64,000 nucleotides of DNA from a virus: the IMG/VR virus record IMGVR_UViG_3300009788_000087. One strand, written 5' to 3'. The notes under the pieces were generated by a model. The model did no database searches, had not been told where the DNA came from, and worked only from the letters and a program-made list of their open reading frames with translations. A program made the position numbers and the translations under genes. Shown piece by piece: positions 42,771-55,793 of this stretch; the first letter of the stretch is position 1, and every line of letters begins with the position of its first letter.

Positions 42771-42845
42771 TGGAGAGCAATCCCGGGATCGAACCGGGGC
42801 ATCTGAGGGTTGCAACCTCAAGCCTTTCCGCTTGGCTAATCGCTC
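42771..42845 (-). tRNA. trnC: tRNA-Cys(GCA)
   Basis: Cloverleaf, loop TTGCAAC, U73, CCA encoded. Confidence 0.9.
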
Positions 42846-42849
42846 GTAG

Positions 42850-42925
42850 AGGGCCGTGTGAGAATCGAACTCACCTATCACGGATTAACAGTCCGCCGCA
42901 ATCAAACCAGACATGCCAACGACCC
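42850..42925 (-). tRNA. trnN: tRNA-Asn(GTT), copy 1
   Basis: Loop CTGTTAA, T-loop TTCGATT; U73, no CCA. Confidence 0.8.
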
Positions 42926-42934
42926 TAAAATTTG

Positions 42935-43009
42935 CTCCAGGAGAAGGAGTCGAACCTTCAAGTCAAGCGCTTAACAGGCGCCCGGCATTACCAATTTGCC
43001 TACCCTGGA
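42935..43009 (-). tRNA. trnN: tRNA-Asn(GTT), copy 2
   Basis: Loop CTGTTAA, G73. Confidence 0.9.
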
Positions 43010-43010
43010 A

Positions 43011-43085
43011 TGGAGCTCCTACGCAGAATCGAACTGCGAGTTTGGCATTACGAAAGCCATGTGTTACCATTAACACCATAAGAGC
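43011..43085 (-). tRNA. trnT: tRNA-Thr(CGT)
   Basis: Loop TTCGTAA, CCA encoded. Confidence 0.85.
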
Positions 43086-43126
43086 AATTATATCATATCT
43101 AGTGTGTTAGTACACTAAATAAAGAG

Positions 43127-43210
43127 AGGAAGATGAGTGAGTCGAACACTCTTCACCTTTCAGCGGCCTGGGATTAGCAATCCCGCACATTACCGTTCTG
43201 TCAATCTTCC
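43127..43210 (-). tRNA. trnS: tRNA-Ser(GCT)
   Basis: Loop TTGCTAA, long variable arm; U73. Confidence 0.85.
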
Positions 43211-43214
43211 ATAG

Positions 43215-43289
43215 ATGCGGCCCAGGGACTTGCGCCCTGTAAGTTTCACAAGGTTATGAGCCTCGCAGCGTCTGTTTGCACTAGCCGCA
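43215..43289 (-). tRNA. trnM: tRNA-Met(CAT), initiator-like, non-canonical T-loop
   Basis: CGAGG-CTCATAA-CCTTG arm; T-loop CGCAAGT. Confidence 0.65.
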
Positions 43290-43294
43290 ATAAA

Positions 43295-43516
43295 TTACCA
43301 TCCAAATATATCGTGATCCAAGTAATCAAGTTCTTCATCAATATCTGGATAATCTCCAATTATATCACAAACTTGCTTGTTATATTCTTTAACTGTCATT
43401 GTTCTTTTACACTTTGGATATATTGAACATCCGTAGAAAGAATTTAAATTCTTTCTGTTGTGTCTCAGGACAACTCCATTTCCACATTTCTGACACTTTA
43501 CTTCTTCAATCTTCAA
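43295..43516 (-). CDS. topoisomerase C4 zinc-finger-like small protein
   Basis: CQKCG...FYGCSIYPKC. Confidence 0.8.
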   Translation of the reverse strand: MKIEEVKCQKCGNGVVLRHNRKNLNSFYGCSIYPKCKRTMTVKEYNKQVCDIIGDYPDIDEELDYLDHDIFGW

Positions 43517-44208
43517 TATCTCTCAATCAACTTTCTTGTATGTTCAGGTCCTTTTACTTGGTGGACATGATGTTGTATACTCCCTTTCATCTTTATAGCA
43601 AGTGGATAATCATTTCCACCCTTGCCACACTTATCTCCGAAGAAATGAACTTCGCCAAACAGATCATCTAATATCTGTGACTTATCTTTTCCAATCGGAT
43701 GAACGTCAATGCTAATTTCACCACCGACTGAGGCATCAAGCGTGTATCTGTGAATTCTCTTTATGACTTTGCACCAGTGTTCACGCTCTTTATTGGTAGC
43801 GTCCCAAGCTACGTAGTCTTCACGTTGTTTCGTCGTTGCATTTCTTCCAACCGTTGAGACATTTACCATCCCTGTTCGAACTTCAACGTGGTTTCCGTGT
43901 CTTTCAGGATATTTTGATTTATTGACAATGTCATTGAATAAAGCCATCATGGAGTCAGATGCTTCCCATTTATTCTCGTAAACAAGTTTTCCTTGAGTCC
44001 AGACTTCATTACCGCATGTTTGATGAACTGCGGTCACACCTTCCCAGATTTTTTGACCAACTTGACTTATCGTCTTGTCTTTATCACTTCCGGTTAGAAG
44101 ATAAACTTGTTTGTCTTTCATCCATTCAAGGAAAAATTCCTTAAACTCTTTTGACATCTTGCTCCGCGGAGGAGTGAGAGTGCCATCTACATCAAATACA
44201 AAATTCAT
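43513..44208 (-). CDS. phosphomannomutase, HAD-IIB (eukaryotic PMM-like)
   Basis: FDVDGTLT, TGSD, EVRTGMVN, GGEISIDV, DKSQ, FFGDKCGKGGNDYP. Confidence 0.85.
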   Translation of the reverse strand: MNFVFDVDGTLTPPRSKMSKEFKEFFLEWMKDKQVYLLTGSDKDKTISQVGQKIWEGVTAVHQTCGNEVWTQGKLVYENKWEASDSMMALFNDIVNKSKYPERHGNHVEVRTGMVNVSTVGRNATTKQREDYVAWDATNKEREHWCKVIKRIHRYTLDASVGGEISIDVHPIGKDKSQILDDLFGEVHFFGDKCGKGGNDYPLAIKMKGSIQHHVHQVKGPEHTRKLIERY

Positions 44209-44444
44209 GGTTTGACTTTAAGTATGTGTTTCCCATTCAGATGAACTGCCCAGTAGTATGGCACTGAAAAACAAGATCCAGAAACTATACGATAGAATGA
44301 CTTTAATTCGATCCACTTCTCTGCAGCTTTTCGTTTATTCTTGAAATAATGAATTCCACCGAATACACATTCTGGGATTTTATCAACTGGTGCTCCAATC
44401 TTATTCCAAAGATCACAGTCACAATCACATGTAATCACTGACAT
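44205..44444 (-). CDS. hypothetical protein
   Basis: ORF track; ATGA coupling. Confidence 0.6.
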   Translation of the reverse strand: MSVITCDCDCDLWNKIGAPVDKIPECVFGGIHYFKNKRKAAEKWIELKSFYRIVSGSCFSVPYYWAVHLNGKHILKVKP

Positions 44445-44445
44445 T

Positions 44446-44519
44446 TGGAGCCTAGAGAGAGAATCGAACTCTCATATTCGCTATACCACAACGATATTCT
44501 ACCATTGAATCATCCAGGC
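44446..44519 (-). tRNA. trnT: tRNA-Thr(GGT)
   Basis: Loop GTGGTAT (G32/U38), CCA encoded. Confidence 0.85.
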
Positions 44520-44716
44520 ATTTCATAGTCATCGTACCACACATGCTCCATCGGTGTAACATTGTACAGATTATTCCATGAGATAAATTCTAAAACTTTT
44601 TCTTTGGATTCGAAGACCAGTAATCGATCGCTCATGAAACTTACAAGCTTGAGTTCTTCATGACATCTTCCGATGCCAAGGTGACAAAATTTATGTTCAG
44701 CTATCCAACCTACCAT
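44510..44716 (-). CDS. hypothetical protein
   Basis: Lies between two tRNA-Thr genes; its last codons overlap the tRNA 5' end. Confidence 0.5.
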   Translation of the reverse strand: MVGWIAEHKFCHLGIGRCHEELKLVSFMSDRLLVFESKEKVLEFISWNNLYNVTPMEHVWYDDYEMPG

Positions 44717-44717
44717 T

Positions 44718-44791
44718 TGGAGCCCTCACCCAGAATCGAACTGAGATATATGGTTTACAAAACCATGGTTCTGCCATTGAACTATAAGGGC
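44718..44791 (-). tRNA. trnT: tRNA-Thr(TGT)
   Basis: Loop TTTGTAA, CCA encoded. Confidence 0.9.
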
Positions 44792-44885
44792 AATTCAGAG
44801 TCCCTCTCGACTCTCGGGGTGTAACCCCATGGGTGTCTCACTTGAGTGTCTCTGAGTGGAGCTGGTGGGACGAGAGAGGATGCTA
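44792..44885. repeat. GC-rich CTC/GAG element, copy 1
   Basis: Shares CCAGCTCCACTC-N53-CTCTGAATT with 63636-63726, in inverted orientation. Confidence 0.5.
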
Positions 44886-44895
44886 GAGTGTATAT

Positions 44896-44969
44896 TGGAG
44901 CGCCTGGTGGGAATCGAACCCACATCGCCAGGGTGGAAACCTAGAATTCTGCCTTTATACCACAAGCGC
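44896..44969 (-). tRNA. trnG: tRNA-Gly(TCC)
   Basis: Loop TTTCCAC, U73, CCA. Confidence 0.9.
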
Positions 44970-44975
44970 TTAGTT

Positions 44976-45060
44976 GAGACATGGTTGTGGTTACTTCGTC
45001 TAGCTCTTTGTTCTGGCATCGCTAGATCCCACGCTACGCCGCCAAAGCTCGCCATGTCTC
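44976..45060 (-). ncRNA. end-paired structured RNA, family X copy 1
   Basis: GAGACATGG/CCATGTCTC terminal stem; AGCTAG-N3-AAGT-N4-ACAAC motif. Confidence 0.5.
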
Positions 45061-45133
45061 GGTGCGGACATAGGGAATCGAACCCTAATCTCAACGTTGG
45101 CAACGTCGAATAATACCACTATACCATATCCGC
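45061..45133 (-). tRNA. trnG: tRNA-Gly(GCC)
   Basis: Loop TTGCCAA; A73. Confidence 0.9.
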
Positions 45134-45184
45134 ATTAGTCCGAGTTTTTTATATTTGGCAGAACCCGAAGAGAACAAAACTGCC

Positions 45185-45259
45185 GGTCGGGGAGAGCGGA
45201 TTCGAACCGCTGACCTCTCGTGTCCAAGACGAGTTGTCTGACCACTGACTTACACCCCG
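45185..45259 (-). tRNA. trnP: tRNA-Pro(TGG)
   Basis: C1-G72, loop CTTGGAC. Confidence 0.9.
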
Positions 45260-45318
45260 TAGTGGGGAGATTGTTCTTTTATATAGCGTCGGAACCTCCC
45301 GAACAACGCTAAGCTAAG

Positions 45319-45528
45319 CTAAACTCCCATTAAGATAGAAACTGCTACTTCATCCCTTGGAAAGATATTTGATCTCAACACAGCGACTCTTTCCACAAAA
45401 TCGCTGGCAAAAGGTATATCAACTTTGCATAAGTTGTCGTCATCTGGGCCAGTCACAATTTTAACATCGTAAGTCTCTCCACAGACGATAGCTTCAGCGT
45501 TACATTCAAATACTTCAATGCTACTCAT
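45319..45528 (-). CDS. hypothetical protein
   Basis: GAGG RBS; ORF track. Confidence 0.6.
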   Translation of the reverse strand: MSSIEVFECNAEAIVCGETYDVKIVTGPDDDNLCKVDIPFASDFVERVAVLRSNIFPRDEVAVSILMGV

Positions 45529-45562
45529 TTGCTTTTCCTCTCAGCTTATGTTATACCAGCGC

Positions 45563-45637
45563 GGTTGGCGAAGTAGGATTTGAACCTACAACCTTTCGGG
45601 TCAGAGCCGACTGCACCGCCAATTGTGCTACTCGCCA
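45563..45637 (-). tRNA. trnQ: tRNA-Gln(CTG)
   Basis: U1-A72, loop CTCTGAC. Confidence 0.9.
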
Positions 45638-46299
45638 TTGTATTGCTTTCTTCCAATCTTCCATCCTTGAGAAAGATAAACCTCTATTTCTTCTTTCATA
45701 ATTCTTTTGGATTGTCTTAATCTTTCATTAAAGATCCATTTTGATCCAAAAGATCCATTCTTGTCGCCCATATGTTTTCCAACTGCAGACTGTCTCATTT
45801 TTTCAATTGTTTCTGGCTCATGTTTCTTACCTAACCAATTTTGATTATTTAAAAGTTTTTTTCTTTGAGCTTCACTTGTTCGACCTTTTTCAAGGTTTTT
45901 AAACATTTTTTCTTTTTGAATAATCCAAACTTGACGATTTGCTTCTCTTGTTTTTCCATTCTTCCATCCCATAGCAGATATTCGACTTGCTTCTTCACTA
46001 TCAAATCCGCTCCCGCCTTTTCTGAGATTCATGCACAGTTTATCGTCGATCAAATCTTCTGTTATGATCTGTATTTCTTGTTTTTTAAGACTTTCTCGAT
46101 CTGAAAAAAATTCTACAATTTCTCGAACATGATTCTCTTTTCCATATTTCTTAATTGAATACCAAAGTCTTTTTCCTGATCCTAGATAACCATCTTCGAG
46201 ATCATCTGTAGAATGCATTCCAATGTAATATCGATTCGTTATAGTACATGTTGTTTTATAAATGTAGTGGTATTTTCGTCTACCTGCTTGCTTTCTCAT
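45628..46299 (-). CDS. GIY-YIG (Seg-like) homing endonuclease
   Basis: YHYIYKT...RYYIGMH...GYLGSG...YGKENH...E...CMN; NUMOD-like KHEPETIEKMRQS; AT-rich. Confidence 0.9.
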   Translation of the reverse strand: MRKQAGRRKYHYIYKTTCTITNRYYIGMHSTDDLEDGYLGSGKRLWYSIKKYGKENHVREIVEFFSDRESLKKQEIQIITEDLIDDKLCMNLRKGGSGFDSEEASRISAMGWKNGKTREANRQVWIIQKEKMFKNLEKGRTSEAQRKKLLNNQNWLGKKHEPETIEKMRQSAVGKHMGDKNGSFGSKWIFNERLRQSKRIMKEEIEVYLSQGWKIGRKQYNGE

Positions 46300-46336
46300 G
46301 CATTAAGTATGCAAACATGGTAGATTTTTCTAAAAG

Positions 46337-46409
46337 TGACTCCGGAAGGATTTGAACCCTCGTAAACTTGATTAGGAATCAAGTGCCTGATCCTCTAGAC
46401 TACGGAGCC
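46337..46409 (-). tRNA. trnR: tRNA-Arg(CCT)
   Basis: Loop TTCCTAA. Confidence 0.9.
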
Positions 46410-46411
46410 AT

Positions 46412-46482
46412 TGGCGCCGAACCGGGGAATCAAACCCACGCTAGCAAGGTTTGGAATCTCGCCTAATCTCAGATTGCTCGAC
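46412..46482 (-). tRNA. trnW: tRNA-Trp(CCA) with truncated D-arm
   Basis: Loop TTCCAAA, G73, CCA; D region only AATCTGAGATTAGG. Confidence 0.75.
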
Positions 46483-46953
46483 TTATTTTCTAACGCTGAT
46501 CGCATAAATTCTCTTTTGATCTACCGTTATTGACTTTCTATCGTTCCACCACATATGTATGAGTTTCTTGTCATTCCATACGTGTGTGCCGTTCTCATAT
46601 AAGTTGACTTTGAAATTCGAGGAATCGAAGATAGCAATCCCAGAAGTTCCTAGACTGCCAATTGCGAGAATCCAATGCTCCCAATTCTCTACGGCTAATA
46701 TAACCGGCTGGCCGTTCGCCAGAGTCTCGTGGAGCCACTCTGTTGCTTTCTGCTTATCATCGAAGGAGTGCTGTTTCGGATGGAATCCCCAAGCTCTGAG
46801 AGCTTTCAAGATTCCTACTTCTGACGTTCCATAATCTTGGTGAGTTCCAGCACATGCTCTAATTTCGTGTTCTGCGACTCGCACTCCAAATACTCGGAAA
46901 GTATTTCTTACGACGGCAGCGCCGCAGGACCACTTCTTTTTCTGACGCTTCAC
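46483..46953 (-). CDS. peptidase C39-like cysteine protease
   Basis: QKKKWSCGAA, YGTS, EHWILAIG, IAIFDS. Start moved to the GTG at 46953 because the longer ORF runs through tRNA-Arg. Confidence 0.8.
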   Translation of the reverse strand: MKRQKKKWSCGAAVVRNTFRVFGVRVAEHEIRACAGTHQDYGTSEVGILKALRAWGFHPKQHSFDDKQKATEWLHETLANGQPVILAVENWEHWILAIGSLGTSGIAIFDSSNFKVNLYENGTHVWNDKKLIHMWWNDRKSITVDQKRIYAISVRK

Positions 46954-46967
46954 GATATAAGTATGAG

Positions 46968-47040
46968 TACCATCGAGAGGATTCGAACCCCCATAAACCG
47001 GAGTAGAAATCCGGCGCCTATCCTTTCGAGCCACGATGGC
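46968..47040 (-). tRNA. trnR: tRNA-Arg(TCT)
   Basis: Loop TTTCTAC. Confidence 0.9.
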
Positions 47041-47045
47041 AAAAC

Positions 47046-47336
47046 TTAGAAAGTTTTTGTTAATGCTTGTTCAAGAAGAGCAGGATCAACTTTGATAACT
47101 CGCTCTGGCCGCTGCAGCCCGCGCGCATATCCTAAACCGGTTTTATATGTCTTCGTTGCATATTGGTATTGCTTTTCAAGAGGTCGAACTGACATGTATG
47201 AGCGTTCCCAACGACTATCTTCTCTTAGAACCATCTTTGTAATTTTTGCAATTGTTGCAACTTTTGTAGAATATCCTTTTGCATAAACTACGACATCACC
47301 AATAGTCAAAACATTTCCAAATTGATCTTTAAACAT
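47046..47336 (-). CDS. hypothetical phage protein
   Basis: MFKDQFGNVLTIGDVVVY, an SH3/KOW-like start common in phage; AAGGA RBS. Confidence 0.7.
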   Translation of the reverse strand: MFKDQFGNVLTIGDVVVYAKGYSTKVATIAKITKMVLREDSRWERSYMSVRPLEKQYQYATKTYKTGLGYARGLQRPERVIKVDPALLEQALTKTF

Positions 47337-47355
47337 GATTTTCCTTTCAAAAAAT

Positions 47356-47432
47356 TGGTCCCCCCTCTAGGATTTGAACCTAGATCTCACGGGTTAAGAG
47401 CCCGGTATGTTGCACATTGCCACCAAGGAGGG
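47356..47432 (-). tRNA. trnK: tRNA-Lys(CTT)
   Basis: Loop CTCTTAA, CCA encoded. Confidence 0.85.
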
Positions 47433-47485
47433 ATATCCCGATGAGGATTTTAACCTCTCCTTCCCGTCGGGTCGGGAAAACTAAT

Positions 47486-48508
47486 CTAAGCTTTTACAGT
47501 TTCTACTTTCTTTTTCTCGGCCTTGAATGAAAGACCAAGAACATTACCACCAACGATTTCATAACGAAGACGTGCTTCGTCTTTATACTTCCTTGCCTGA
47601 GCGGTGATGGCGTTTACCAGGTCCCAACGACTCTTGAACGAGAGATCTTCACTAATTGCAGTCATCGTCTTTACAACAAAGGACTTAGGCAATTTCTTTT
47701 GTTTTTCAAGTTCTACGAGCCTGTCGAGAGCATCAGACGCAGTCATGCGATCTGTCTGTGCAGTTCTTACATTTTCATAACACTGCTTTGCATCATCACC
47801 AACTCGATTAGATACTGACTTGATGACAGCTTCATAATCGAAGATTGCGGACTTTTTGTTGTCCATGTAGAAATACGGTCGACCACCATACTGCGCAATC
47901 ATTCCATTCGTGCAGATCTGACGGTAAAGCAAGAGATTGATCTGCTCTTGGACATGTTCAACATCAGAGTTCAACAGATCCATGCCCATCATGATCGGTG
48001 AGCCATCAACTTCAATTCCAGTATCTGGCCAAATGAGGCGAGTGCGGAAGAACGCTGGATGATCACTAACTGACCACGGAGCATGTTCAATCTTTACATC
48101 GTCGTTGAAAATGCGTTTTACATTCTCCAACATAAGAGCATTGGCGCGGAATTTCTTTCCTTCAGCGATAACGCCACGAAGAGTGAACCTACCGTCGACA
48201 GGGTTCTGATGAATAATAGCTTGACCGATTGGATTTTGAAGCTGTTCACCGAACTCCCTGAGCGATTTATTGACAAGTGTTGAAGATGCTGTCCGGATGT
48301 AACCAGCAGGCAGCTTGATAAATCTTGCCAACGAAGTGACGCTAGCTTTCGTGAGAGAGAGACGCTTGTCATCCTCTGTCACAAGCATCCCGTGATCTTC
48401 ACTGTCTGTAAATGTTAGCTTTCCAACATCTACCGCTTGGGTAAAAATATTAGAATCATATTCTTGAAGTTTACTAAGTGCGCCATCGATATTTCCATAC
48501 TTTTGCAT
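47486..48508 (-). CDS. DUF932-like protein
   Basis: GMDLLNSD...LLYRQICTNGMI...RWDLVNAITAQAR. Confidence 0.65.
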   Translation of the reverse strand: MQKYGNIDGALSKLQEYDSNIFTQAVDVGKLTFTDSEDHGMLVTEDDKRLSLTKASVTSLARFIKLPAGYIRTASSTLVNKSLREFGEQLQNPIGQAIIHQNPVDGRFTLRGVIAEGKKFRANALMLENVKRIFNDDVKIEHAPWSVSDHPAFFRTRLIWPDTGIEVDGSPIMMGMDLLNSDVEHVQEQINLLLYRQICTNGMIAQYGGRPYFYMDNKKSAIFDYEAVIKSVSNRVGDDAKQCYENVRTAQTDRMTASDALDRLVELEKQKKLPKSFVVKTMTAISEDLSFKSRWDLVNAITAQARKYKDEARLRYEIVGGNVLGLSFKAEKKKVETVKA

Positions 48509-48541
48509 GTTTTCTCCGTTTCAATTGAGAGTGTGAATTAT

Positions 48542-48570
48542 ATAATACCACTCTCACACTCATATGTAAA
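48542..48570 (-). promoter_or_regulatory. sigma70-like promoter
   Basis: TTTACA-17 nt-TATTAT; spacer resembles the one at 53070-53098. Confidence 0.65.
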
Positions 48571-48585
48571 CAAAAGAAAGATTAG

Positions 48586-48658
48586 TCCCACCCTGTGGAC
48601 TCGAACCACAATCTCTCGGGCTTCAACCGAGCGCATTGACCATCTCTGCAAGAGTGGG
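48586..48658 (-). tRNA. trnF: tRNA-Phe(GAA)
   Basis: Loop TTGAAGC. Confidence 0.9.
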
Positions 48659-48662
48659 AAAT

Positions 48663-48736
48663 TGGTCGCACCGAAGGGATTTGAACCCTCGCCTTCCACA
48701 TTGACAGTGTGGTGCACTACCTTATGCTACGATGCG
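48663..48736 (-). tRNA. trnD: tRNA-Asp(GTC)
   Basis: Loop CTGTCAA; atypical A73; CCA. Confidence 0.85.
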
Positions 48737-48741
48737 AAATT

Positions 48742-48820: not shown

Positions 48821-48829
48821 CCCACTGTT

Positions 48830-48904: not shown

Positions 48905-48909
48905 GAAAT

Positions 48910-49688: not shown

Positions 49689-50102
49689 CTATAGAGGTGG
49701 AACGCAGGCCTGAGCATCACAGAAGAAGTCTAGACAGACACATTCCCAACCTTCATTAACCCTACAGTCTTCATTAGCAGTACATTTTTGAAAACAAACT
49801 TTTTCACCGGTCGGATTATACCTGAGACAAAGTTCTGTATCTGGACAGGAGTCTACTAGACAATCCAAACCAGCTTCACATTCTTCGCCGTCGGTGGTGA
49901 GCCACGCACATTCATCAGTACAAAAACCACCGGCAACTTCTGTCTCATCCTGAAATTCTGTTACACAGTTTCCAGATACACATTCTTCACTTAGCTCGCA
50001 CGTCACACCATTTTCTACAGGATCAGGTCCACCAGATCCACACGATGAGGTAATGAGACAAATCGCAAAAATTACAATCGTAAACCCGATAAACTTTTTC
50101 AT
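49689..50102 (-). CDS. Cys-rich lipoprotein
   Basis: Lipobox-like ITSSC after a hydrophobic signal; many Cys in the mature part. Confidence 0.8.
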   Translation of the reverse strand: MKKFIGFTIVIFAICLITSSCGSGGPDPVENGVTCELSEECVSGNCVTEFQDETEVAGGFCTDECAWLTTDGEECEAGLDCLVDSCPDTELCLRYNPTGEKVCFQKCTANEDCRVNEGWECVCLDFFCDAQACVPPL

Positions 50103-50177
50103 TCTTGGTCCTTTCGTGACCCTGTTATACTCTCTTATTATATCAAATCAAGAACCAATGTGAAACTAAAAAGGCCC

Positions 50178-50256
50178 ACCATTGTAAAAGTCAAGATCGA
50201 TTTACACCGACCGCTGTATCTGCTTAACGCTAGTGCCCGGTCTCTAATACAATAGT
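50178..50256 (-). ncRNA. end-paired structured RNA directly after tRNA-Leu CCA
   Basis: ACTATTGTA/TACAATGGT stem; GACCG/CGGTC and GGT-GTAA-ATC hairpins. Confidence 0.45.
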
Positions 50257-50257
50257 C

Positions 50258-50333
50258 TGGTACCGCCGAGTGGATTCGAACCACCACTTTACGCGTTCTA
50301 AGCGCGCTCTCTCTGCCGTTGGAGTACGGCGGT
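50258..50333 (-). tRNA. trnL: tRNA-Leu(TAG), short variable loop
   Basis: Loop CTTAGAA, A73, CCA. Confidence 0.9.
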
Positions 50334-50363
50334 ATAGCTGTTGGATTTGTGATCCAACGATGC

Positions 50364-50440
50364 TGGTGCCCCGAGTGAGATTCGAACTCACACTGTCACG
50401 CGTCTCAGGCGTGTCTCTCTTCCAATTGGAGTATCGGGGC
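50364..50440 (-). tRNA. trnL: tRNA-Leu(GAG), short variable loop
   Basis: Loop CTGAGAC, A73, CCA. Confidence 0.9.
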
Positions 50441-50445
50441 AGATA

Positions 50446-50521
50446 ACTGAGATTAAAGGACTCCCTAACCAAGGAGATTATAACTGATCAATCAGACCTA
50501 CTGGTATTCCAGCGTCTCAGT
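50446..50521 (-). ncRNA. four-way-junction structured RNA
   Basis: ACTGAGA/TCTCAGT stem enclosing three hairpins. Confidence 0.45.
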
Positions 50522-50548
50522 CCGGTTTGTTTCTAGAAAACTCCCCGT

Positions 50549-50620
50549 TGGTACCCTCAAGAGGACTCGAACCTCTCCATTCCGGTTCGTAGCCGGAAGT
50601 TCCATCCAGTGGCTGAGGGC
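50549..50620 (-). tRNA. trnR: tRNA-Arg(ACG) with truncated D-arm
   Basis: TCCGG-CTACGAA-CCGGA; D region GCCACTGGATGGAACT; CCA. Confidence 0.8.
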
Positions 50621-50625
50621 AAACA

Positions 50626-50704
50626 TGGGACCGCCAGCAAAGTCCCACTAACAGGATCCCTCGATTCGGAGTCGAGCCTGCTAAGCATCTCCTATACCTG
50701 GCGA
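50626..50704 (-). ncRNA. tRNA-like RNA with a perfect Arg(CCG) anticodon arm and degenerate D/T arms
   Basis: TCGCCAG/CTGGCGG acceptor-like stem; CTCGA-CTCCGAA-TCGAG. Confidence 0.5.
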
Positions 50705-50723
50705 TCAACCAGACTTTGAAGAC

Positions 50724-50796
50724 GGTACCGCCTGAGAGAATCGAACTCCCGCCACAGCCGTGTAAAGACTAGGCCCTGCCATTAGACGAAGGCGGC
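50724..50796 (-). tRNA. trnV: tRNA-Val(TAC)
   Basis: Loop TTTACAC. Confidence 0.9.
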
Positions 50797-50833
50797 AAAT
50801 TATAACATTTCACTTTGCTAGCATATTTATTCT

Positions 50834-51433
50834 ATGCAACGATTTCTTATTACTGGTTGTCCGAGATCTGGAACTAAATTCATTGCTGACCTCTTAAGCA
50901 ACTTAGGAATTAAATGTGGTTGGGAGCAAATCTATAATTATGATATCGCTGCGTGGGGAGAAGGTGTTGTTGGTGAATCTAGCTGGCTTTCTGTCCAACA
51001 CTTTGATGTTCTTCCAGAAGATGTCATTGTGTTGCACCAAGTTCGTTATCCTCCAGAAGTTATCAAATCAATGATGCACTGGACTATATTAGAATCTGGT
51101 AAAGATAAAGCACATGCTTCTCGAACCACAAATAAACCCGAAAGATATGTCATTAGGGGATCAGAAAGAAGACAGCTGATATACGAAAGATTTTGGGTAG
51201 ACATCAACAATATCATTGCTGAACGTGCAGTGTATAGATGGAAAGTTGAAGATATAGATTTCGAAATTTACAACTTGCTTGACATCATCAAAATCAAAGT
51301 GCCAGAAGACAAAATAAAAAAAGAACTTGAATCAATCAATCGAAAAATAAACTCGGGTCATTATAAAGGACCTAAGCAGTTAAAAGATCCGGATGCAATA
51401 AAGCTCGCAGAATCCTATGGCTACAAACTATAA
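50834..51433 (+). CDS. sulfotransferase-family protein
   Basis: ITGCPRSGTKF 5'-PSB motif, GESSW, VLHQVRYP; only convincing plus-strand gene. Confidence 0.8.
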   Translation: MQRFLITGCPRSGTKFIADLLSNLGIKCGWEQIYNYDIAAWGEGVVGESSWLSVQHFDVLPEDVIVLHQVRYPPEVIKSMMHWTILESGKDKAHASRTTNKPERYVIRGSERRQLIYERFWVDINNIIAERAVYRWKVEDIDFEIYNLLDIIKIKVPEDKIKKELESINRKINSGHYKGPKQLKDPDAIKLAESYGYKL

Positions 51434-51436
51434 ACG

Positions 51437-51525
51437 ATGGGCGTCCTAGGCCAGACTAGACGATACCTCCCTACGTATGCATCCGTAAGTTGAAAGGCAG
51501 TAGGATTTGAACCTGCGTTTCCCAT
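51437..51525 (-). ncRNA. circularly permuted, anticodon-less tRNA mimic (unit D)
   Basis: Order: ATGGG / var / T arm / TGCCTTT-hairpin-GGAGGTA / D arm / CCCAT. Confidence 0.75.
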
Positions 51526-51531
51526 AAACTT

Positions 51532-51619
51532 GAGGTGGCTCTGCCGCTGAGCTACAATTCCTCGTCGGTCATGGCCGAACATCATCAGAATTGGTTGGAT
51601 TCGAACCAACGCACACCCC
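51532..51619 (-). ncRNA. circularly permuted, anticodon-less tRNA mimic (unit C)
   Basis: Order: GGGGT / var / T arm GTTGG-TTCGAAT-CCAAC / CAATTCT-hairpin-GGAATTG / D arm / ACCTC. Confidence 0.8.
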
Positions 51620-51621
51620 TT

Positions 51622-51697
51622 TGGTATCCTCAGATGGATTCGAGCCAACATTCTCCACCATGTCACGGTGGCGCTTTTCCGGTTAAGCTATGAGGAC
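51622..51697 (-). tRNA. trnV: tRNA-Val(GAC)
   Basis: Loop GTGACAT (G32/U38), CCA. Confidence 0.85.
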
Positions 51698-51702
51698 AAA
51701 AC

Positions 51703-51833
51703 TGGTGGGGGAGACGGGATTCGAACCCGCATAACCTGAAGCCCTTTAAAAACTTCGCGCCAGTCCAATTGCTGGACTTCTAGGTGTTAACACCACATAT
51801 AAAGCGGCTGCCTATCCAATCGGCTACTCCCCA
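51703..51833 (-). ncRNA. 131-nt tRNA-like RNA with giant branched variable region and encoded CCA
   Basis: Acceptor, D arm, T arm and ACCA all present; about 60 extra nt 3' of a TTTATAT-loop arm. Confidence 0.7.
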
Positions 51834-51839
51834 AAAACT

Positions 51840-51914
51840 TGGTACCTCGTGTCAGAATCGAACTGATCGTCGTGCGGTTATCGGCCGCACACTCTGCCAT
51901 TGAGCTAACGAGGT
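51840..51914 (-). tRNA. trnI: tRNA-Ile(GAT), C33 variant
   Basis: TGCGG-CCGATAA-CCGCA, CCA. Confidence 0.85.
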
Positions 51915-51920
51915 AAAAAG

Positions 51921-52000
51921 TGGACGCGAAGAGAATCGAACTCTTGTCCTAAATTGTTCCATTTGTCGGCTTACAACCTAGTCGAAACCAGCGCGCGCCC
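51921..52000 (-). ncRNA. ssrA: mini-tmRNA (tRNA-like domain only)
   Basis: GGGCGCG...TGGTTTCGAC, G3:U70, P2a stem, GGAC linker, T arm, A73; only a 15-nt loop where the mRNA domain should be. Confidence 0.75.
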
Positions 52001-52081
52001 TAAAACTGCCTGCCGCCACCCTCCGGACTTCCATCACTGATGTCGTGAGTAGCATACCATTGGGACGTACAGACATAAAGA

Positions 52082-52181
52082 AGAAGGTGGGCCGGACTCG
52101 CACCGGCAAGACTTATCCATGGTTACGTCTTTTATACAGAGCTTGCAAATTCTCTGCACGGACTCTAATACCCGCCCCTCC
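52082..52181 (-). ncRNA. Sec/allo-tRNA-like non-canonical cloverleaf
   Basis: Acceptor with bulged A, compact D arm, 7-bp stem with AATTTGCAAG loop, long variable arm, T arm GCCGG-TGCGAGT-CCGGC. Confidence 0.55.
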
Positions 52182-52188
52182 ATAAAAT

Positions 52189-52262
52189 TGGCAGATGTTG
52201 AAGGAATCGAACCCTCACCTACAGACTTGGAAACTGTCGTGCTACCACTACACCAAACAAAT
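52189..52262 (-). tRNA. trnW: tRNA-Trp(CCA), copy 2, two acceptor mismatches (possibly degenerate)
   Basis: Loop TTCCAAG, G73, CCA. Confidence 0.6.
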
Positions 52263-52269
52263 ATAAAGT

Positions 52270-52408
52270 CACCCACGAGAAGCATTACGACGTGTGTAAG
52301 TCTTCAGCTAATCCTCACATTTCGAACCAAAGGAATAGTACAGATCTTACAGCGATACGTATCTTCTATCTGCCACGATGCTGCAATACGCGCTTGCGAT
52401 GCCGTGGG
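52270..52408 (-). ncRNA. approx. 140-nt end-paired structured RNA
   Basis: CCCACG/CGTGGG plus GCAT/ATGC terminal helices; begins right after tRNA-Met CCA. Confidence 0.45.
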
Positions 52409-52482
52409 TGGTGCTGAAGGGTAGAATCGAACTACCATTATACGCATATGAAACGCACGTTTTCCCGTTAAACTACATCAGC
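52409..52482 (-). tRNA. trnM: tRNA-Met(CAT), elongator-type likely
   Basis: Loop TTCATAT, A73, CCA. Confidence 0.8.
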
Positions 52483-52601
52483 AGAAGAGATAGAAGACAA
52501 CCGTCATGCAACATGCTTGCAATCTATCTCAATGAATCAACAAGTTGCAATTGAAGATCCATAACTCATCCTGAATAGCCCAAGGATTTCCAGACGAGTA
52601 G

Positions 52602-52675
52602 TGCCCGCCGCGAGATTCGAACTCGCAACTCTCACTTTTTGAAAGTGATCCCTCTTCCAATTGGGGTAGACGGGC
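52602..52675 (-). tRNA. trnL: tRNA-Leu(CAA), short variable loop
   Basis: TCACT-TTCAAAA-AGTGA. Confidence 0.9.
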
Positions 52676-52785
52676 TAACGACCGCGATTGAACCCGGCCG
52701 ACACGTTTTTGATTCCGATGCAATTAATATTACAGCAGCTAATGATCGTCCGGTTCGAACATACCAGGAACGTGCTCCTGGATTG

Positions 52786-52858
52786 TGCTCCTGAAGAGAT
52801 TCGAACTCTTGCTGGACCGGGCTTAAACCGGATGTCTCTGCCGTTGGACTACAGGAGC
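52786..52858 (-). tRNA. trnL: tRNA-Leu(TAA), short variable loop
   Basis: Loop TTTAAGC. Confidence 0.9.
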
Positions 52859-52859
52859 A

Positions 52860-52936
52860 TGGGGCGGTAAATCGGATTCGAACCGACATTGGCAAAGTTC
52901 ACAACCTTGTGCATTAACCGTTATGCTATTACCGCC
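52860..52936 (-). tRNA. trnH: tRNA-His(GTG)
   Basis: Encoded G-1:C73, loop TTGTGAA, CCA. Confidence 0.92.
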
Positions 52937-53069
52937 ATAAAAGAGAGGGTCATCATTCAACGATGATGCTCTTAAAGGGCCACGTCATTTAGACAACCCT
53001 CTCGTTGTTTTTATTACATTCACTATTCAATTATCAATGAGCACAGCACCTTTGCGCCATTGTGAGAGT

Positions 53070-53098
53070 ATTATACCATCTCACTTTTCATATGTAAA
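53070..53098 (-). promoter_or_regulatory. sigma70-like promoter
   Basis: TTTACA-17 nt-TATAAT. Confidence 0.75.
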
Positions 53099-53110
53099 CT
53101 CTTATTTGCT

Positions 53111-53185
53111 TGGTGGACATGGGGAGAATCGAACTCCCATCGAGCAGCTTGCAAGGCTGACGTAATCCCGTTATACCACACGCCC
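53111..53185 (-). tRNA. trnA: tRNA-Ala(TGC)
   Basis: G3:U70, loop CTTGCAA, CCA. Confidence 0.92.
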
Positions 53186-53187
53186 GT

Positions 53188-53346
53188 TTACTTTTTCTTA
53201 TCGTATTCTTTCTTTGCTTTAGGTTCCCAATTTTTCGGCGGCTCTTTTCCTTGTAGCCAATTACTAGCTTCGCGCATCGCTGAGTTATTCATGTGTCCAG
53301 AAGCTAGTTTTGTTATTAGTTTTCTTGTCCAGTCGTCTTTTTTCAT
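53188..53346 (-). CDS. small basic protein (52 aa)
   Basis: MKKDDWTRKLITKLASGHM...; overlaps the upstream stop; not in the ORF track. Confidence 0.55.
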   Translation of the reverse strand: MKKDDWTRKLITKLASGHMNNSAMREASNWLQGKEPPKNWEPKAKKEYDKKK

Positions 53347-53675
53347 TTATAACCTAGTTTCTTATTCCACTCTTCTAACATTGCTTCTCGCCCTTTCTTA
53401 GGGCAACCACCGAAACCCCAGTCGACATCAAGGACTTTTCCACAATTTCCACATGCTACTTCCATTAATGGATTATTCTGCGGTCGCCAAGATCCATATT
53501 TACTTTTCTGAAAGATCAAGACGTGTTTTCTACCTTCTTTGCCTTTGCACCATTTCTTCTTATTTTTCTTCTTTGCTTTATGTTTTGGCACGTCTTCTAC
53601 TGACTTGTCGTGCCTGTTATCCCTATGTTTGATGCCGCCTGATTTCCAACTAGTATTATCTTCTTTTAAACGCAT
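53343..53675 (-). CDS. Lys-rich hypothetical protein with CxxC
   Basis: ORF track; coupled. Confidence 0.65.
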   Translation of the reverse strand: MRLKEDNTSWKSGGIKHRDNRHDKSVEDVPKHKAKKKNKKKWCKGKEGRKHVLIFQKSKYGSWRPQNNPLMEVACGNCGKVLDVDWGFGGCPKKGREAMLEEWNKKLGYK

Positions 53676-53836
53676 GAAGAATTTCTTTCGTATTCTAAAA
53701 TTTCTTCTTCTATGTCTATTTGTAATTCTCTTTCTACGCTTGCTTTTTCTTCATTTACTCCGTTTGCCTTGTGTGGTTTGCAGAGTAAACAGCCGGCTCG
53801 TCTATTCTTTGGTCTTTTCCGTTTATGGTTTGCCAT
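53666..53836 (-). CDS. small basic protein (56 aa)
   Basis: MANHKRKRPKNRRAGCLLCKPHK; ATG immediately follows tRNA-Ser CCA. Confidence 0.6.
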   Translation of the reverse strand: MANHKRKRPKNRRAGCLLCKPHKANGVNEEKASVERELQIDIEEEILEYERNSSCV

Positions 53837-53920
53837 TGGAGGAGAGTGGAGTAATCGAAACCCGTACCTTTCAGCACCCCAGGGGTTCAAACCCTGTTCG
53901 TCGCCTTGACGGCACTCTCC
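53837..53920 (-). tRNA. trnS: tRNA-Ser(TGA)
   Basis: Loop TTTGAAC, long variable arm, U73, CCA. Confidence 0.85.
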
Positions 53921-53974
53921 AGTTGCCCGCTCTATCGGCGGGCTATATCTTGTGATATTTACTATCACCCCCTT

Positions 53975-54487
53975 CTAACGTGTTTGTGTTTTGCTTCCAA
54001 CATTATATCTACCAATATTTTTATGTTTTACACAGAAGTCCGCAACGTGCATAGCAGCCCATGAATCTGGCTTCGTAAGAACATTAAATCCCTGACCAGT
54101 GACGTAACCAACAAGTTCTTGCAAATACTTTGAAGACTTGTATCGCAACTTTGGATTTACGTCAATGTGGATACAAAGTTCAACATCCTCCGATAAAACT
54201 TCGTTGAGTTCGAATCCAATCTCAATGCTTTTCGATACTTCCGTGAGAAGACGTTCCCTGAGAGATGTGATGCGTGGCACTTTTTCCGTTGTCCACAGGA
54301 CTCTTCCACCTTTTCCAGGCTTCAAGAGGACAACGACTCGCACGAATTCAGTGATAAGCTCGTGCTGCTGTGAGTCACAACCAACGTGGATCAAGCGATT
54401 ACCATCAGCAGTTGACTTCACAACCTCAGCAACATAATCATCAACATGTTTTCCACTCAACGTCTTCCATGTTAGTACGCTTGCCAT
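53975..54487 (-). CDS. RNase H-like YkuK (DUF458) family protein
   Basis: IHVGCDSQ, RERLLTEVSKS, IHIDVN, KPDSWAAMHVAD. Confidence 0.85.
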   Translation of the reverse strand: MASVLTWKTLSGKHVDDYVAEVVKSTADGNRLIHVGCDSQQHELITEFVRVVVLLKPGKGGRVLWTTEKVPRITSLRERLLTEVSKSIEIGFELNEVLSEDVELCIHIDVNPKLRYKSSKYLQELVGYVTGQGFNVLTKPDSWAAMHVADFCVKHKNIGRYNVGSKTQTR

Positions 54488-54506
54488 TTTCTTCCTTTCT
54501 TTCTCC

Positions 54507-54580
54507 TGGTTCGGAAACGAGGGATTGAACCTCGATTAAGCGAGTCAAAGTCGCTTGTCTTACCATTAGACCATTCCCGA
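54507..54580 (-). tRNA. trnQ: tRNA-Gln(TTG)
   Basis: U1-A72, loop CTTTGAC, CCA. Confidence 0.9.
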
Positions 54581-54583
54581 ATG

Positions 54584-54616
54584 AAAAAGGGACCGCCCTT
54601 TCGAGCAGCCCCTTTT
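54584..54616 (-). terminator. intrinsic terminator
   Basis: AAGGGGCTGC-TCGAAAG-GGCGGTCCCTT hairpin followed by a T-run. Confidence 0.7.
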
Positions 54617-54816
54617 AGTGTCTTTCTTTATTGACTACTTCAAGGGGCTATGTTCCTCGGGTTAGTAATCGCTGTATCAACAGACTTCTCCATCCCAAGG
54701 CGTGAAGGCGTTTGATAAAACAAATGCCAACTAGCCAGTAACGATTCTATGCAATGGAGTTTTCTCATGTCTCTAGAGTTATATAGGAGCTCGCCTACGA
54801 AAATTCCCTTTTTAGG

Positions 54817-54927
54817 CTAGCAACTACCGAGGTAGGTCACGACGCCGCCGCCGAGAACCATCCACCAGGAAACCTGGAACCAATAGGGAGTCTTCTTCTT
54901 AAATTCCGACCAATATTTCTTGACCAT
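54817..54927 (-). CDS. small membrane peptide (36 aa)
   Basis: AGGAGA RBS; MVKKYWSEFKKKTPYWFQVSWWMVLGGGVVTYLGSC. Confidence 0.55.
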   Translation of the reverse strand: MVKKYWSEFKKKTPYWFQVSWWMVLGGGVVTYLGSC

Positions 54928-54976
54928 ATTTTAGTGTCTCCTATCGGGGCGAAATGCCCGTCTCAGTATATAGGCA

Positions 54977-55267
54977 CTAACTTTTCTTCTTATACTTCTT
55001 CGCTTTTGATCGTTTCTTTGGAGTCTCCTCAGTCTTCTTCTGTGGCTTCTCCTGCTTGATTGGATTATATAACCGGAGCTCAAAATATTCTCTCTTGTTG
55101 CTTCTCCGTGGCCCTCGCCGTACGATTTTCACCTTGGAGGGAGCAGGATTGAGAATTTCAGCGTCATTTACTGCTATTTTAGCTTCTCTAAAAGTCCCAA
55201 AACGATGTTTTTCATAGCAGATCAAGCGCTGCATGCTCTCCGGTTTCACTTTTTCATTTTCCACCAT
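54977..55267 (-). CDS. basic hypothetical protein
   Basis: ATG about 7 nt after a -10 box (leaderless-like). Confidence 0.65.
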   Translation of the reverse strand: MVENEKVKPESMQRLICYEKHRFGTFREAKIAVNDAEILNPAPSKVKIVRRGPRRSNKREYFELRLYNPIKQEKPQKKTEETPKKRSKAKKYKKKS

Positions 55268-55273
55268 GATTCC

Positions 55274-55302
55274 ATTTTACTCCATTGAAGCTCAATTGTA
55301 AA
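55274..55302 (-). promoter_or_regulatory. sigma70-like promoter
   Basis: TTTACA-17 nt-TAAAAT. Confidence 0.7.
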
Positions 55303-55304
55303 AC

Positions 55305-55343
55305 AAAAAAAGACCCAAGGAGAATAGCCTTCTCCCCGGGTCG
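55305..55343 (-). terminator. intrinsic terminator closing the permuted-RNA transcript
   Basis: GACCCGGGGAGAA-GGCTA-TTCTCCTTGGGTC followed by a T-run. Confidence 0.85.
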
Positions 55344-55367
55344 TTGTCTATTGACTATGAATCAATA

Positions 55368-55558
55368 ATTGTTGCGACTTATGTTGATCAACACGTTTAA
55401 TCTTCGTCTTTAGATCTAAGAACCTGCGAGTTACCATTACTCCACCTCGTCGCTCAATTCACTGATTATTTCAATGAACTCAGCGACAAGGGCTGGATAC
55501 GAACCAGCATTTCAGGTGAATTTGTACGAAGAGTTAGAGATGACCTACCACAACGATA
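55368..55558 (-). ncRNA. YrlA-like (Y RNA) permuted tRNA mimic (unit B)
   Basis: ACCTG / AAAT / T arm / approx. 20-bp closed acceptor hairpin / D arm / CAGGT, extended by a long terminal helix. Confidence 0.75.
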
Positions 55559-55561
55559 TTA

Positions 55562-55793
55562 AACTTTTGAGGAATAGTCTAAGTTTTACTTATCACTTTT
55601 AATGGACATAGAGAGTTAATCTCTACGCGTCTACCAATTTCGCCACCCGATATAAACGGAGCAGTGAGATATCCACGACTTAACGTATTCATCTTTGCTC
55701 CTAACCAGTATATCTACTGGTTTAGTTATCGGGGCAGGCATCGAACCTACACGTCCCTAAAATGATCAATGAACTTTAGTCTAAATCTCAGCT
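55562..55793 (-). ncRNA. circularly permuted tRNA-Leu(UAA)-like RNA opened in the variable arm (unit A)
   Basis: T arm, CCCGATA+A73, 74-nt insert, TATCGGG, Leu-type D arm, TAGAG-ATTAACT-CTCTA; TGTCC pairs with the upstream GGACG. Confidence 0.75.

What the first reader, a model, noticed from the sequence alone, without database searches (positions are those of the whole stretch)
42771..55793. Main candidate system: a full tRNA array laced with a diverse set of tRNA mimics
Seen: besides 37 tRNAs there are four circularly permuted cloverleaves, a TLD-only tmRNA, a 131-nt CCA-tailed tRNA, a Sec/allo-like cloverleaf, an Arg(CCG) arm mimic and at least five end-paired RNAs. Most abut tRNA ends, so tRNA processing would release them. 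Known: hosts use tRNA-cleaving defences and toxins (PrrC, RloC, VapC, PARIS, retron effectors), and bacterial YrlA RNAs are permuted tRNA mimics. Inference: a co-transcribed RNA counter-defence kit (decoys or inhibitors for tRNA nucleases, synthetases, SmpB, Ro60). I know of no description of this combination.
Basis: partly seen in the sequence, partly recalled or inferred. Interest (0 to 1): 0.92.

Follow-up and report, generated by a model that had tools for sequence, protein, structure and literature searches.

The report
Phage tRNA island with tRNA mimics
An uncultured T4-like phage carries about 35 tRNA genes mixed with several real tRNA look-alike RNAs, chiefly a tag-less mini-tmRNA and a two-headed back-to-front tRNA mimic that always travels with one unknown protein.

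Summary
ARAGORN and Rfam support 34 tRNAs, with 3 more under relaxed settings, covering all 20 amino acids. Rfam also finds an 83-nt tmRNA made only of the tRNA-like domain (64 bits). A 128-131-nt tRNA-Ile(UAU)-like gene carries a 57-nt insert in its variable region.

Downstream of a DUF7873 gene lie two circularly permuted tRNA-like domains (units A and B). A covariance model of unit B finds the same RNA beside DUF7873 in about 50 IMG/VR loci, 57 further metagenome loci and six cultured phages. In the 57 non-seed loci 98% of cells pair, with 353 double-sided changes. No Ro60 gene accompanies it.

Two minimal permuted cloverleaves (C and D) are structurally convincing but have no relatives to test. 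The Sec-like cloverleaf, the Arg(CCG) arm and the "end-paired RNAs" are unsupported.

The region has several promoter-like sites and a strong terminator, so it is not one operon. Counter-defence is untested. TLD-only tmRNA is already published (mycobacteriophage DS6A).

This scan has seen the DUF7873 double mimic before in at least 104 other genomes and mini-tmRNAs in at least 30. I found no paper describing the DUF7873 RNA.

The parts
42771..54580 (-). tRNA gene array: 34 well-supported tRNAs plus 3 weak calls, all 20 amino acids. It is interrupted by small ORFs, a PMM-like gene, a C39-like peptidase, an RNaseH-like gene and a homing endonuclease.
   Evidence: ARAGORN; Rfam; Pfam and PADLOC
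55807..56541 (-). DUF7873 protein gene (244 aa), the conserved partner of the RNA that follows it.
   Evidence: Pfam PF25283, E 8.9e-94. AF2 model pLDDT 91.7: helical bundle plus beta-sheet, with no PDB fold match. It is the only conserved gene in the neighbourhood.
55562..55806 (-). Unit A: a tRNA-Leu(UAA)-derived domain permuted through the variable arm. Order: T arm, acceptor 3' strand, 74-nt insert, acceptor 5' strand, Leu-type D arm, intact anticodon arm. A long outer helix encloses it.
   Evidence: Fold; T arm at 55734-55750; family alignment A3 shows covariation in the T, acceptor and D stems.
55372..55578 (-). Unit B: a YrlA-like permuted class-I tRNA-like domain with a 21-bp closed acceptor hairpin, extended stems S and P0, and the conserved loops ATCGAC-like / TTAAACG.
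   Evidence: Model R1 114.7 bits; covariation.
55312..55342 (-). Intrinsic terminator closing the DUF7873 + A + B unit.
   Evidence: 13-bp stem followed by a T run.
51918..52000 (-). TLD-only (tag-less) mini-tmRNA.
   Evidence: Rfam RF00023 64.1 bits; G3:U70, A73, P2a helix.
51703..51833 (-). 131-nt tRNA-Ile(UAU)-like gene with a 57-nt insert in the variable region and an encoded CCA.
   Evidence: Rfam tRNA 36.5 bits with alignment.
51532..51619 (-). Unit C: minimal permuted cloverleaf with no anticodon loop, starting 2 nt after tRNA-Val.
   Evidence: Descriptor hits; R1 partial 32.3 bits; Rfam YrlA 24.1 bits, sub-threshold.
51437..51525 (-). Unit D: a second, weaker minimal permuted cloverleaf with a T-stem mismatch and three G-U pairs in the acceptor.
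   Evidence: Relaxed descriptor only; direct reading.
52082..52181 (-). Sec/allo-like cloverleaf candidate (G55 T loop, 10-nt anticodon loop). Unsupported.
   Evidence: Relaxed ARAGORN only; no Infernal hit.
53070..53098 (-). Promoter-like site, 11 of 12 with an extended -10. Similar sites lie at 50137-50164, 48542-48570 and 55274-55302.
   Evidence: shared flanking motif.
45628..46299 (-). Homing endonuclease gene inside the array.
   Evidence: PADLOC HEase, E 9e-23.

Best explanation
The region is a mosaic tRNA-gene island of an uncultured, roughly 196-kb T4-like phage. It is transcribed from several promoters. Besides a full tRNA set it carries at least two independent, mobile classes of tRNA-derived RNA genes.

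(1) A tag-less mini-tmRNA. It most likely binds SmpB, and once CCA is added AlaRS, and so damps host trans-translation, as reported for the DS6A-type molecule.

(2) A roughly 450-nt RNA encoded right after the DUF7873 gene. It folds into two back-to-front tRNA-like domains: a Leu-type domain A and a class-I-type domain B. Each has its acceptor stem closed or followed by N-CCA. Domain B's anticodon stem is extended into helices with two conserved internal loops. I infer that DUF7873 binds these loops to form a Ro60-independent particle that presents tRNA elbows and acceptor ends to host tRNA-handling enzymes.

Units C and D and the insert-bearing tRNA-Ile are lineage-specific offshoots of the same raw material, and whether they function is open.

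Shown: the genes, their structures, their conservation and the gene-RNA linkage. Inferred: protein-RNA binding, processing at the acceptor loops, and any effect on the host.
For: - Array and odd tRNAs.
- Mini-tmRNA: 64.1 bits with identity elements. A second example lies 150 nt from a DUF7873 RNA in L002. Precedent and inhibition of tmRNA are reported in PMC4131195 and PMC11915505.
- DUF7873 RNA distribution: full-length R1 hits in about 50 of 55 IMG/VR loci, 57 non-seed metagenome loci and Racecar, Ziko, FBKp24, phiRSL1, D505 and RHph_TM16.
- DUF7873 RNA structure: 98% of cells paired, 23 of 24 pairs with double-sided changes, 0 of 500 shuffles as high.
- Unit A: T, acceptor and D stems covary.
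- N-CCA after the acceptor 3' strand: ACCA in 15 of 50 unit A, TCCA or GCCA in 18 of 50 unit B.
- DUF7873 is the only conserved neighbour.
- No TROVE gene in complete carrier genomes.
- Terminator and promoter-like sites.
Against: - There is no transcript, binding or processing datum.
- The DUF7873 fold matches nothing known, so RNA binding rests on gene-RNA linkage alone.
- In the window, unit B's acceptor is a 21-bp continuous hairpin without CCA, so acceptor-loop processing cannot be universal.
- The mini-tmRNA lacks an encoded CCA.
- Promoter-like matches overall are no more frequent than in shuffles (24 against 25.6). Only the top four, which share a motif, are persuasive.
- C, D and the long tRNA are singletons and could be decaying copies.
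Confidence: 0.6

Rival explanations
1. All the mimics form one co-transcribed RNA counter-defence kit whose members act as decoys or inhibitors of tRNA nucleases, synthetases, SmpB and Ro60.
For: - The mimics cluster in the tRNA array and abut tRNA ends.
- Unit B displays an anticodon-like YU-NAR-R motif that a nuclease could recognise.
- Titration of SmpB by a TLD-only molecule is published.
Against: - A terminator and several promoter-like sites split the region.
- The modules occur separately in other phages. Only 30 of 56 DUF7873 loci have any tRNA nearby.
- Most A and B units lack an anticodon loop proper.
- DUF7873 and the other array proteins tested (7 in all) have no PADLOC hit apart from a homing endonuclease.
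- No Ro60 context.
- Half of the listed members are unverified.
Confidence: 0.12
2. Apart from the mini-tmRNA and the DUF7873 RNA, the odd elements are recombination scars and decaying tRNA pseudogenes. This covers C, D, the Sec-like cloverleaf, the 73-nt CCA-tailed element at 46410-46482, the long tRNA and the gap hairpins. They would arise from homing-endonuclease-driven shuffling of the array.
For: - A homing endonuclease gene lies in the array.
- No homologues exist for any of these elements.
- Unit D has a T-stem mismatch and three wobble pairs.
- The Sec-like element has a G55 T loop and no Infernal hit.
- Canonical tRNA-Ile(UAU) and tRNA-Leu(UAA) genes already exist in the array.
Against: - Unit C keeps all four helices, a canonical T loop and a GG D loop.
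- C and D stand in tandem directly after a tRNA, which is about 1e-3 by chance given the 0.4 per 14.5 kb background.
- The long tRNA still passes the Rfam threshold and keeps its CCA.
Confidence: 0.3
3. Units A-D are true circularly permuted tRNA genes. The flanking helix is cut, the ends are ligated by host RtcB or a phage RNA ligase, and the acceptor loop is opened by RNase P and 3' trimming. The product is a working or recoding tRNA, and DUF7873 is the processing factor.
For: - The gene order is that of permuted tRNA genes (PMC3978253).
- N-CCA follows the acceptor 3' strand in a third to a half of the units.
- The window's unit A and L040:5661-5749 keep whole Leu anticodon arms.
- Unit B ends its anticodon stem with a U33-NNN-R37-like motif at the canonical 37/38 break.
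Against: - No bacterial or phage enzyme for this cut is known.
- The conserved internal loops and long helices look like protein-binding sites of a stable RNA.
- Many acceptor hairpins are long and closed, with no CCA.
- Canonical Leu tRNAs are already present.
- The anticodon register is ambiguous.
Confidence: 0.08

Closest known systems
YrlA-class bacterial and phage Y RNAs bound by Ro60/Rsr (Rfam RF02553; Chen et al. 2014, PMC4201824)
   Same: The order T arm, closed acceptor-like stem, D arm. The ends emerge from an extended anticodon-side helix. In M. smegmatis the 7-bp acceptor is cut by RNase P and receives CCA. Such RNAs occur in phages.
   Different: - Scores stay far below the Rfam cut-off: 24-33 bits against 69.
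- The partner gene is DUF7873, not Ro60, and no TROVE gene is nearby.
- Two tRNA-like heads sit on one roughly 400-450-nt RNA.
- The conserved loops are ATCGAC/TTAAACG instead of GNCGAAN0-1G.
TLD-only (CDS-less) tmRNA of mycobacteriophage DS6A (tmRNA Website; PMC4131195, PMC11915505)
   Same: A phage-encoded RNA of about 80 nt with only the tmRNA tRNA-like domain: G3:U70, D-loop analogue, P2a and T arm.
   Different: The host lineage differs, no CCA is encoded, and the gene is embedded as a unit of a tRNA array.
Circularly permuted tRNA genes of Cyanidioschyzon merolae and relatives (PMC3978253)
   Same: The 3' half (T arm, acceptor 3' strand) lies upstream of the 5' half (acceptor 5' strand, D arm). 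Flanks pair next to the break.
   Different: No BHB motif or splicing endonuclease is known here. Most units lack an anticodon loop. The flanks carry conserved loops and a dedicated protein gene.
Large tRNA arrays of jumbo and T4-like phages (for example XacN1, PMC5852040)
   Same: Dozens of tRNAs covering all amino acids, interspersed with small ORFs and homing endonucleases.
   Different: Published annotations list tRNAs and sometimes full-length tmRNA, but not the permuted mimics. In FBKp24 part of the mimic is annotated 'tRNA-Sup-TTA'.

Membership tests
YrlA / Y RNA-like (RF02553) | T arm, then closed acceptor-like stem, then D arm, with the ends in an extended helix. | tested here: met
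   Units A-C by folding and descriptor. Unit B covariation.
YrlA / Y RNA-like (RF02553) | Reaches the Rfam gathering score of 69 bits. | tested here: not met
   Window: only 24.1 bits at 51509-51634, and nothing at units A or B at E<=1. Relatives: 32.9, 30.2 and 23.3 bits.
YrlA / Y RNA-like (RF02553) | Encoded next to a Ro60/TROVE gene. | tested here: not met
   No TROVE in the complete Racecar genome or the GodonK-like genome. None among the window's ten large ORFs. DUF7873 is the only conserved neighbour.
YrlA / Y RNA-like (RF02553) | Ro60-binding motif GNCGAAN0-1G on the 5' strand. | tested here: inconclusive
   The conserved motif at the equivalent place is (A/G)ATCGA(C/A)C opposite TTAAACG. 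It is similar but not the same.
tmRNA, TLD-only form (RF00023; DS6A type) | tmRNA model score above the cut-off, with the mRNA-like domain and pseudoknots absent. | tested here: met
   64.1 bits against 47. Model positions 1-374 are spanned with 304 positions replaced by 13 nt.
tmRNA, TLD-only form (RF00023; DS6A type) | AlaRS identity G3:U70 with A73, and the SmpB-side P2a helix. | tested here: met
   Direct reading and the Infernal alignment.
tmRNA, TLD-only form (RF00023; DS6A type) | Binds SmpB and inhibits trans-translation. | not testable with these tools
   Only literature precedent is available.
tRNA (RF00005), long tRNA | Cloverleaf above the gathering score. | tested here: met
   36.5 bits against 29; UAU anticodon; 57-nt variable-region insert; CCA.
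tRNA-Sec / allo-tRNA (RF01852) | Model match or an 8/5- or 9/4-type fold. | tested here: not met
   No clan CL00001 hit at 52082-52181 at E<=1. Only a relaxed ARAGORN 'tRNA-Ala(agc)' call of 96 nt.
Permuted tRNA genes (C. merolae type) | The 3' half lies upstream of the 5' half. | tested here: met
Permuted tRNA genes (C. merolae type) | Circular intermediate and a mature tRNA product. | not testable with these tools
DUF7873 (PF25283) | Full-length Pfam match. | tested here: met
   E 8.9e-94, profile positions 1-242 of 244.

The most novel reading that the evidence does not exclude
The DUF7873-linked domains, and the minimal units C and D, are circularly permuted tRNA genes. The phage would cut and re-ligate them at the opened anticodon or variable loop and open them at the N-CCA acceptor loop. 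These would be the first permuted tRNA genes outside eukaryotes and archaea, with DUF7873 as a new processing factor and possibly recoding tRNAs as products.
Probability: 0.08. Interest if true: 0.9.

Novelty: new variant of a known kind. Interest (0 to 1): 0.62.

Why it matters
Phage tRNA arrays are usually annotated as lists of tRNAs. This one shows that the same islands carry other tRNA-derived RNA genes.

One of them, the DUF7873-linked two-headed mimic, is widespread. It turned up in more than 100 loci here, from phages of actinobacteria, proteobacteria and cyanobacteria. It is absent from Rfam and from the papers I could search. It has cultured carriers (Racecar, Ziko, GodonK, FBKp24, phiRSL1), so it can be tested directly.

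It would be a Ro60-independent tRNA-mimic particle. Finding its host target could reveal a new way for phages to manipulate translation or tRNA metabolism.

The mini-tmRNA adds to evidence that blocking trans-translation is a common phage strategy.

Tried and rejected
- Close relatives for covariation of C, D, the long tRNA and the gap RNAs: none found. Megablast against phages gave nothing. Two array proteins had no relatives in IMG/VR. The nearest DUF7873 in metagenomes is 68% identical on a 1.1-kb contig.
No whole genome is held.
- DUF7873 function:
  - No PDB sequence match.
  - Foldseek E>0.01.
  - VIA-align Z<=7.6, helical-bundle noise.
  - The Atlas returned only DUF7873 clusters.
  - No longer fused forms beyond one 457-aa protein.
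  - No PADLOC hit and no paper.
- Stop-codon read-through of DUF7873 into the (K/R)-L codon-like hexamer boxes upstream of unit A: rejected. The boxes are in frame with the gene in only about a third of loci, they are often preceded by stops, and similar boxes lie on the 3' flank. I read them as quasi-palindromic RRRYYY hexamers that zip into the outer helix. CTCA-to-TGAG compensation is seen in L007 and L013.
- tmRNA-like tag ORF in the DUF7873 RNA: no consistent stop, so rejected.
- attP-type tRNA fragment: rejected, because the acceptor 5' strand and D arm follow and the stems covary.
- 'Leucine anticodon' in unit B: the motif is real, but the register is ambiguous and Met-, Arg-, Phe- and Val-like exceptions exist.
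- Census of TLD-only tmRNAs by DNA pattern: not feasible at useful specificity.


Full report
**Context.** The window is phage DNA with almost every gene on the minus strand: a baseplate wedge protein, many glycosyltransferases and a radical-SAM enzyme. Earlier notes of this scan describe the genome as an uncultured T4-like phage of about 196 kb. No whole genome is held. Nothing similar at the DNA level exists in 50,697 phage records.

**The array.**
- ARAGORN finds 32 tRNAs at 42771-54580.
- Rfam adds a tRNA-Tyr (33.5 bits) and a 128-nt tRNA (36.5 bits).
- Relaxed ARAGORN adds three weaker genes. All 20 amino acids are covered.
- Genes between the tRNAs include a PMM-like hydrolase, a C39-like peptidase, an RNaseH-like protein and a homing endonuclease.
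- About twenty gaps of 50-540 nt remain.

**Mini-tmRNA.**
- Positions 51918-52000 score 64.1 bits with the tmRNA model (cut-off 47). The alignment spans the whole model, with 304 positions replaced by 13 nt.
- The acceptor stem GGGCGCG/CGCGUCC has G3:U70. A73 follows, the UGGUUUCGAC D-analogue and the P2a helix are present, and no CCA is encoded.
- A second such gene lies in locus L002, about 150 nt from a DUF7873 RNA.
- This kind is published. Mycobacteriophage DS6A carries a 'TLD only' tmRNA, and such a molecule inhibits endogenous tmRNA, perhaps by titrating SmpB (PMC4131195, PMC11915505).
- The scan has seen it in at least 30 other genomes.

**Long tRNA.** The Infernal alignment of 51706-51833 shows a normal acceptor, D arm and T arm. 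The anticodon loop is UUUAUAU (UAU, Ile), a 57-nt insert sits in the variable region, and CCA follows. A canonical tRNA-Ile(UAU) also exists.

**The DUF7873 RNA (units A and B).**
- The 244-aa gene at 55807-56541 is a full-length DUF7873 (E 8.9e-94).
- The 495 nt that follow end in a 13-bp terminator. They fold into two domains.
- Unit A runs T arm, acceptor 3' strand, 74-nt insert, acceptor 5' strand, Leu-type D arm, intact UAA anticodon arm. A variable-arm stem (UGUCC/GGACG) continues into a long outer helix.
- Unit B runs T arm, a 21-bp closed acceptor hairpin, a class-I D arm and a 5-bp anticodon-type stem. That stem is extended by helices S and P0.

**Relatives of the DUF7873 RNA.**
- Nearly all show two orphan T arms about 150 nt apart just after the gene, then a TTAAAYG motif.
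- An alignment of 34 unit-B sequences gave 24 covarying pairs.
- The covariance model built from it (R1) found full-length matches in about 50 of 55 IMG/VR loci, including non-seed ones at 82-105 bits.
- It also found 57 metagenome loci at 55-144 bits and the cultured phages Racecar, Ziko, FBKp24, phiRSL1, D505 and RHph_TM16.
- On the 57 independent sequences 98% of cells pair, 23 of 24 pairs show double-sided changes (353 cells), and no shuffle or slid register comes close. The alignment is fitted to the model, so this leans towards the structure.
- Unit A's T, acceptor and D stems covary in 31 sequences.
- No other protein is conserved nearby. tRNAs lie within 10 kb in 30 of 56 loci.

**Relation to YrlA.**
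- The architecture is that of YrlA (PMC4201824). Rfam YrlA scores only 24-33 bits against a cut-off of 69.
- Complete carrier genomes lack a TROVE gene, as do the window's large ORFs.
- The DUF7873 model is confident (pLDDT 91.7) but matches no solved fold.

**Features noted in the family.**
- The unit A D arm is the 3-bp class-II (Leu) type. N73 is mostly A, and ACCA follows the acceptor in 15 of 50 units.
- Unit B has U or G at position 73, with TCCA or GCCA in 18 of 50.
- A conserved motif (A)CU-NAG-A or YU-YAA-A follows unit B's anticodon-type stem. With U33 it reads mostly as Leu anticodons, but the register is ambiguous and exceptions occur.
- Hexamer boxes flank unit A. They look codon-like but are not in frame with the gene more often than chance.

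**Units C and D.** Positions 51437-51619 hold two 88-89-nt units directly after tRNA-Val. Each has an anticodon-stem 3' strand, T arm, acceptor hairpin, D arm and anticodon-stem 5' strand. The descriptor's background is 0.4 per 14.5 kb. C passes the strict form, and D only the relaxed one. No relatives are available, so function cannot be judged.

**Unsupported items.**
- The Sec-like cloverleaf has no Infernal support.
- The Arg(CCG) arm is a lone hairpin.
- The gap RNAs have no homologues and weak z-scores.

**Transcription.** Besides the terminator at 55342-55312, promoter-like sites with extended -10 elements and a shared flanking motif lie at 55302, 53098, 50164 and 48570. The island is therefore several units.

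**Verdict.** The 'single counter-defence kit' reading is not supported as stated. The best-supported reading is a mosaic island combining tRNAs, a known-type mini-tmRNA and the DUF7873 two-headed tRNA mimic. This scan has already met that mimic in at least 104 other genomes. I could not find it in print.

Noticed in passing
L002:10834-11159: In this IMG/VR phage the DUF7873 gene is followed by a single permuted unit (TCCA after the acceptor), then tRNA-Lys, then a TLD-only tmRNA with encoded CCA (62.9 bits). L050 likewise has one unit followed by tRNA-Lys.
   Followed up: partly
L040:5661-5749; L013:19072-19142: Stand-alone permuted tRNA-like units lie several kb from the DUF7873 gene. The L040 unit keeps a Leu(UAG) anticodon arm and a GNRA-closed acceptor, like the window's unit A.
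   Followed up: partly
L059:2518-2597 (Klebsiella phage vB_KpM_FBKp24): The record annotates part of the DUF7873-linked RNA as 'tRNA-OTHER / tRNA-Sup-TTA', with a promoter between the gene and the RNA. ARAGORN likewise calls the window's unit A 'tRNA-Stop(tta)'. Suppressor tRNA calls in phage records may be these mimics.
   Followed up: partly
window 55770-55800 and the flanks of unit A in most loci: Hexamer-periodic boxes such as AAGCUG AAGUUG AGACUG translate as (K/R)-(L/F) repeats on both flanks of unit A. They have no start codon and no fixed frame relative to DUF7873. I read them as RRRYYY quasi-palindromes forming the outer helix.
   Followed up: partly
window 50797-51433: This 637-nt stretch has no long minus-strand ORF. 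The only long ORF (199 aa) is on the plus strand, against the orientation of nearly every other long ORF in the window, and has only a marginal PHROG hit (E 0.005).
   Followed up: partly
window 46410-46482 (-): A 73-nt element with a 7-bp end-pairing, a GGGUUUGAUUCCC T-like arm and a 3' GCCA tail. No Infernal tRNA hit, so it may be a degenerate tRNA.
   Followed up: no
window 53070-53098, 48542-48570, about 50800-50830 (-): A repeated promoter context, GTTTACATATGA...GTGAGA...TATAAT, recurs inside the array and probably marks a phage promoter class.
   Followed up: no
L114:4154-4338, L118:9587-9771, L086:9743-9920, L133:3595-3780: In a few metagenome loci the unit-B RNA lies upstream of the DUF7873 gene or on the opposite strand. 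Adjacency is conserved, but order is not.
   Followed up: no
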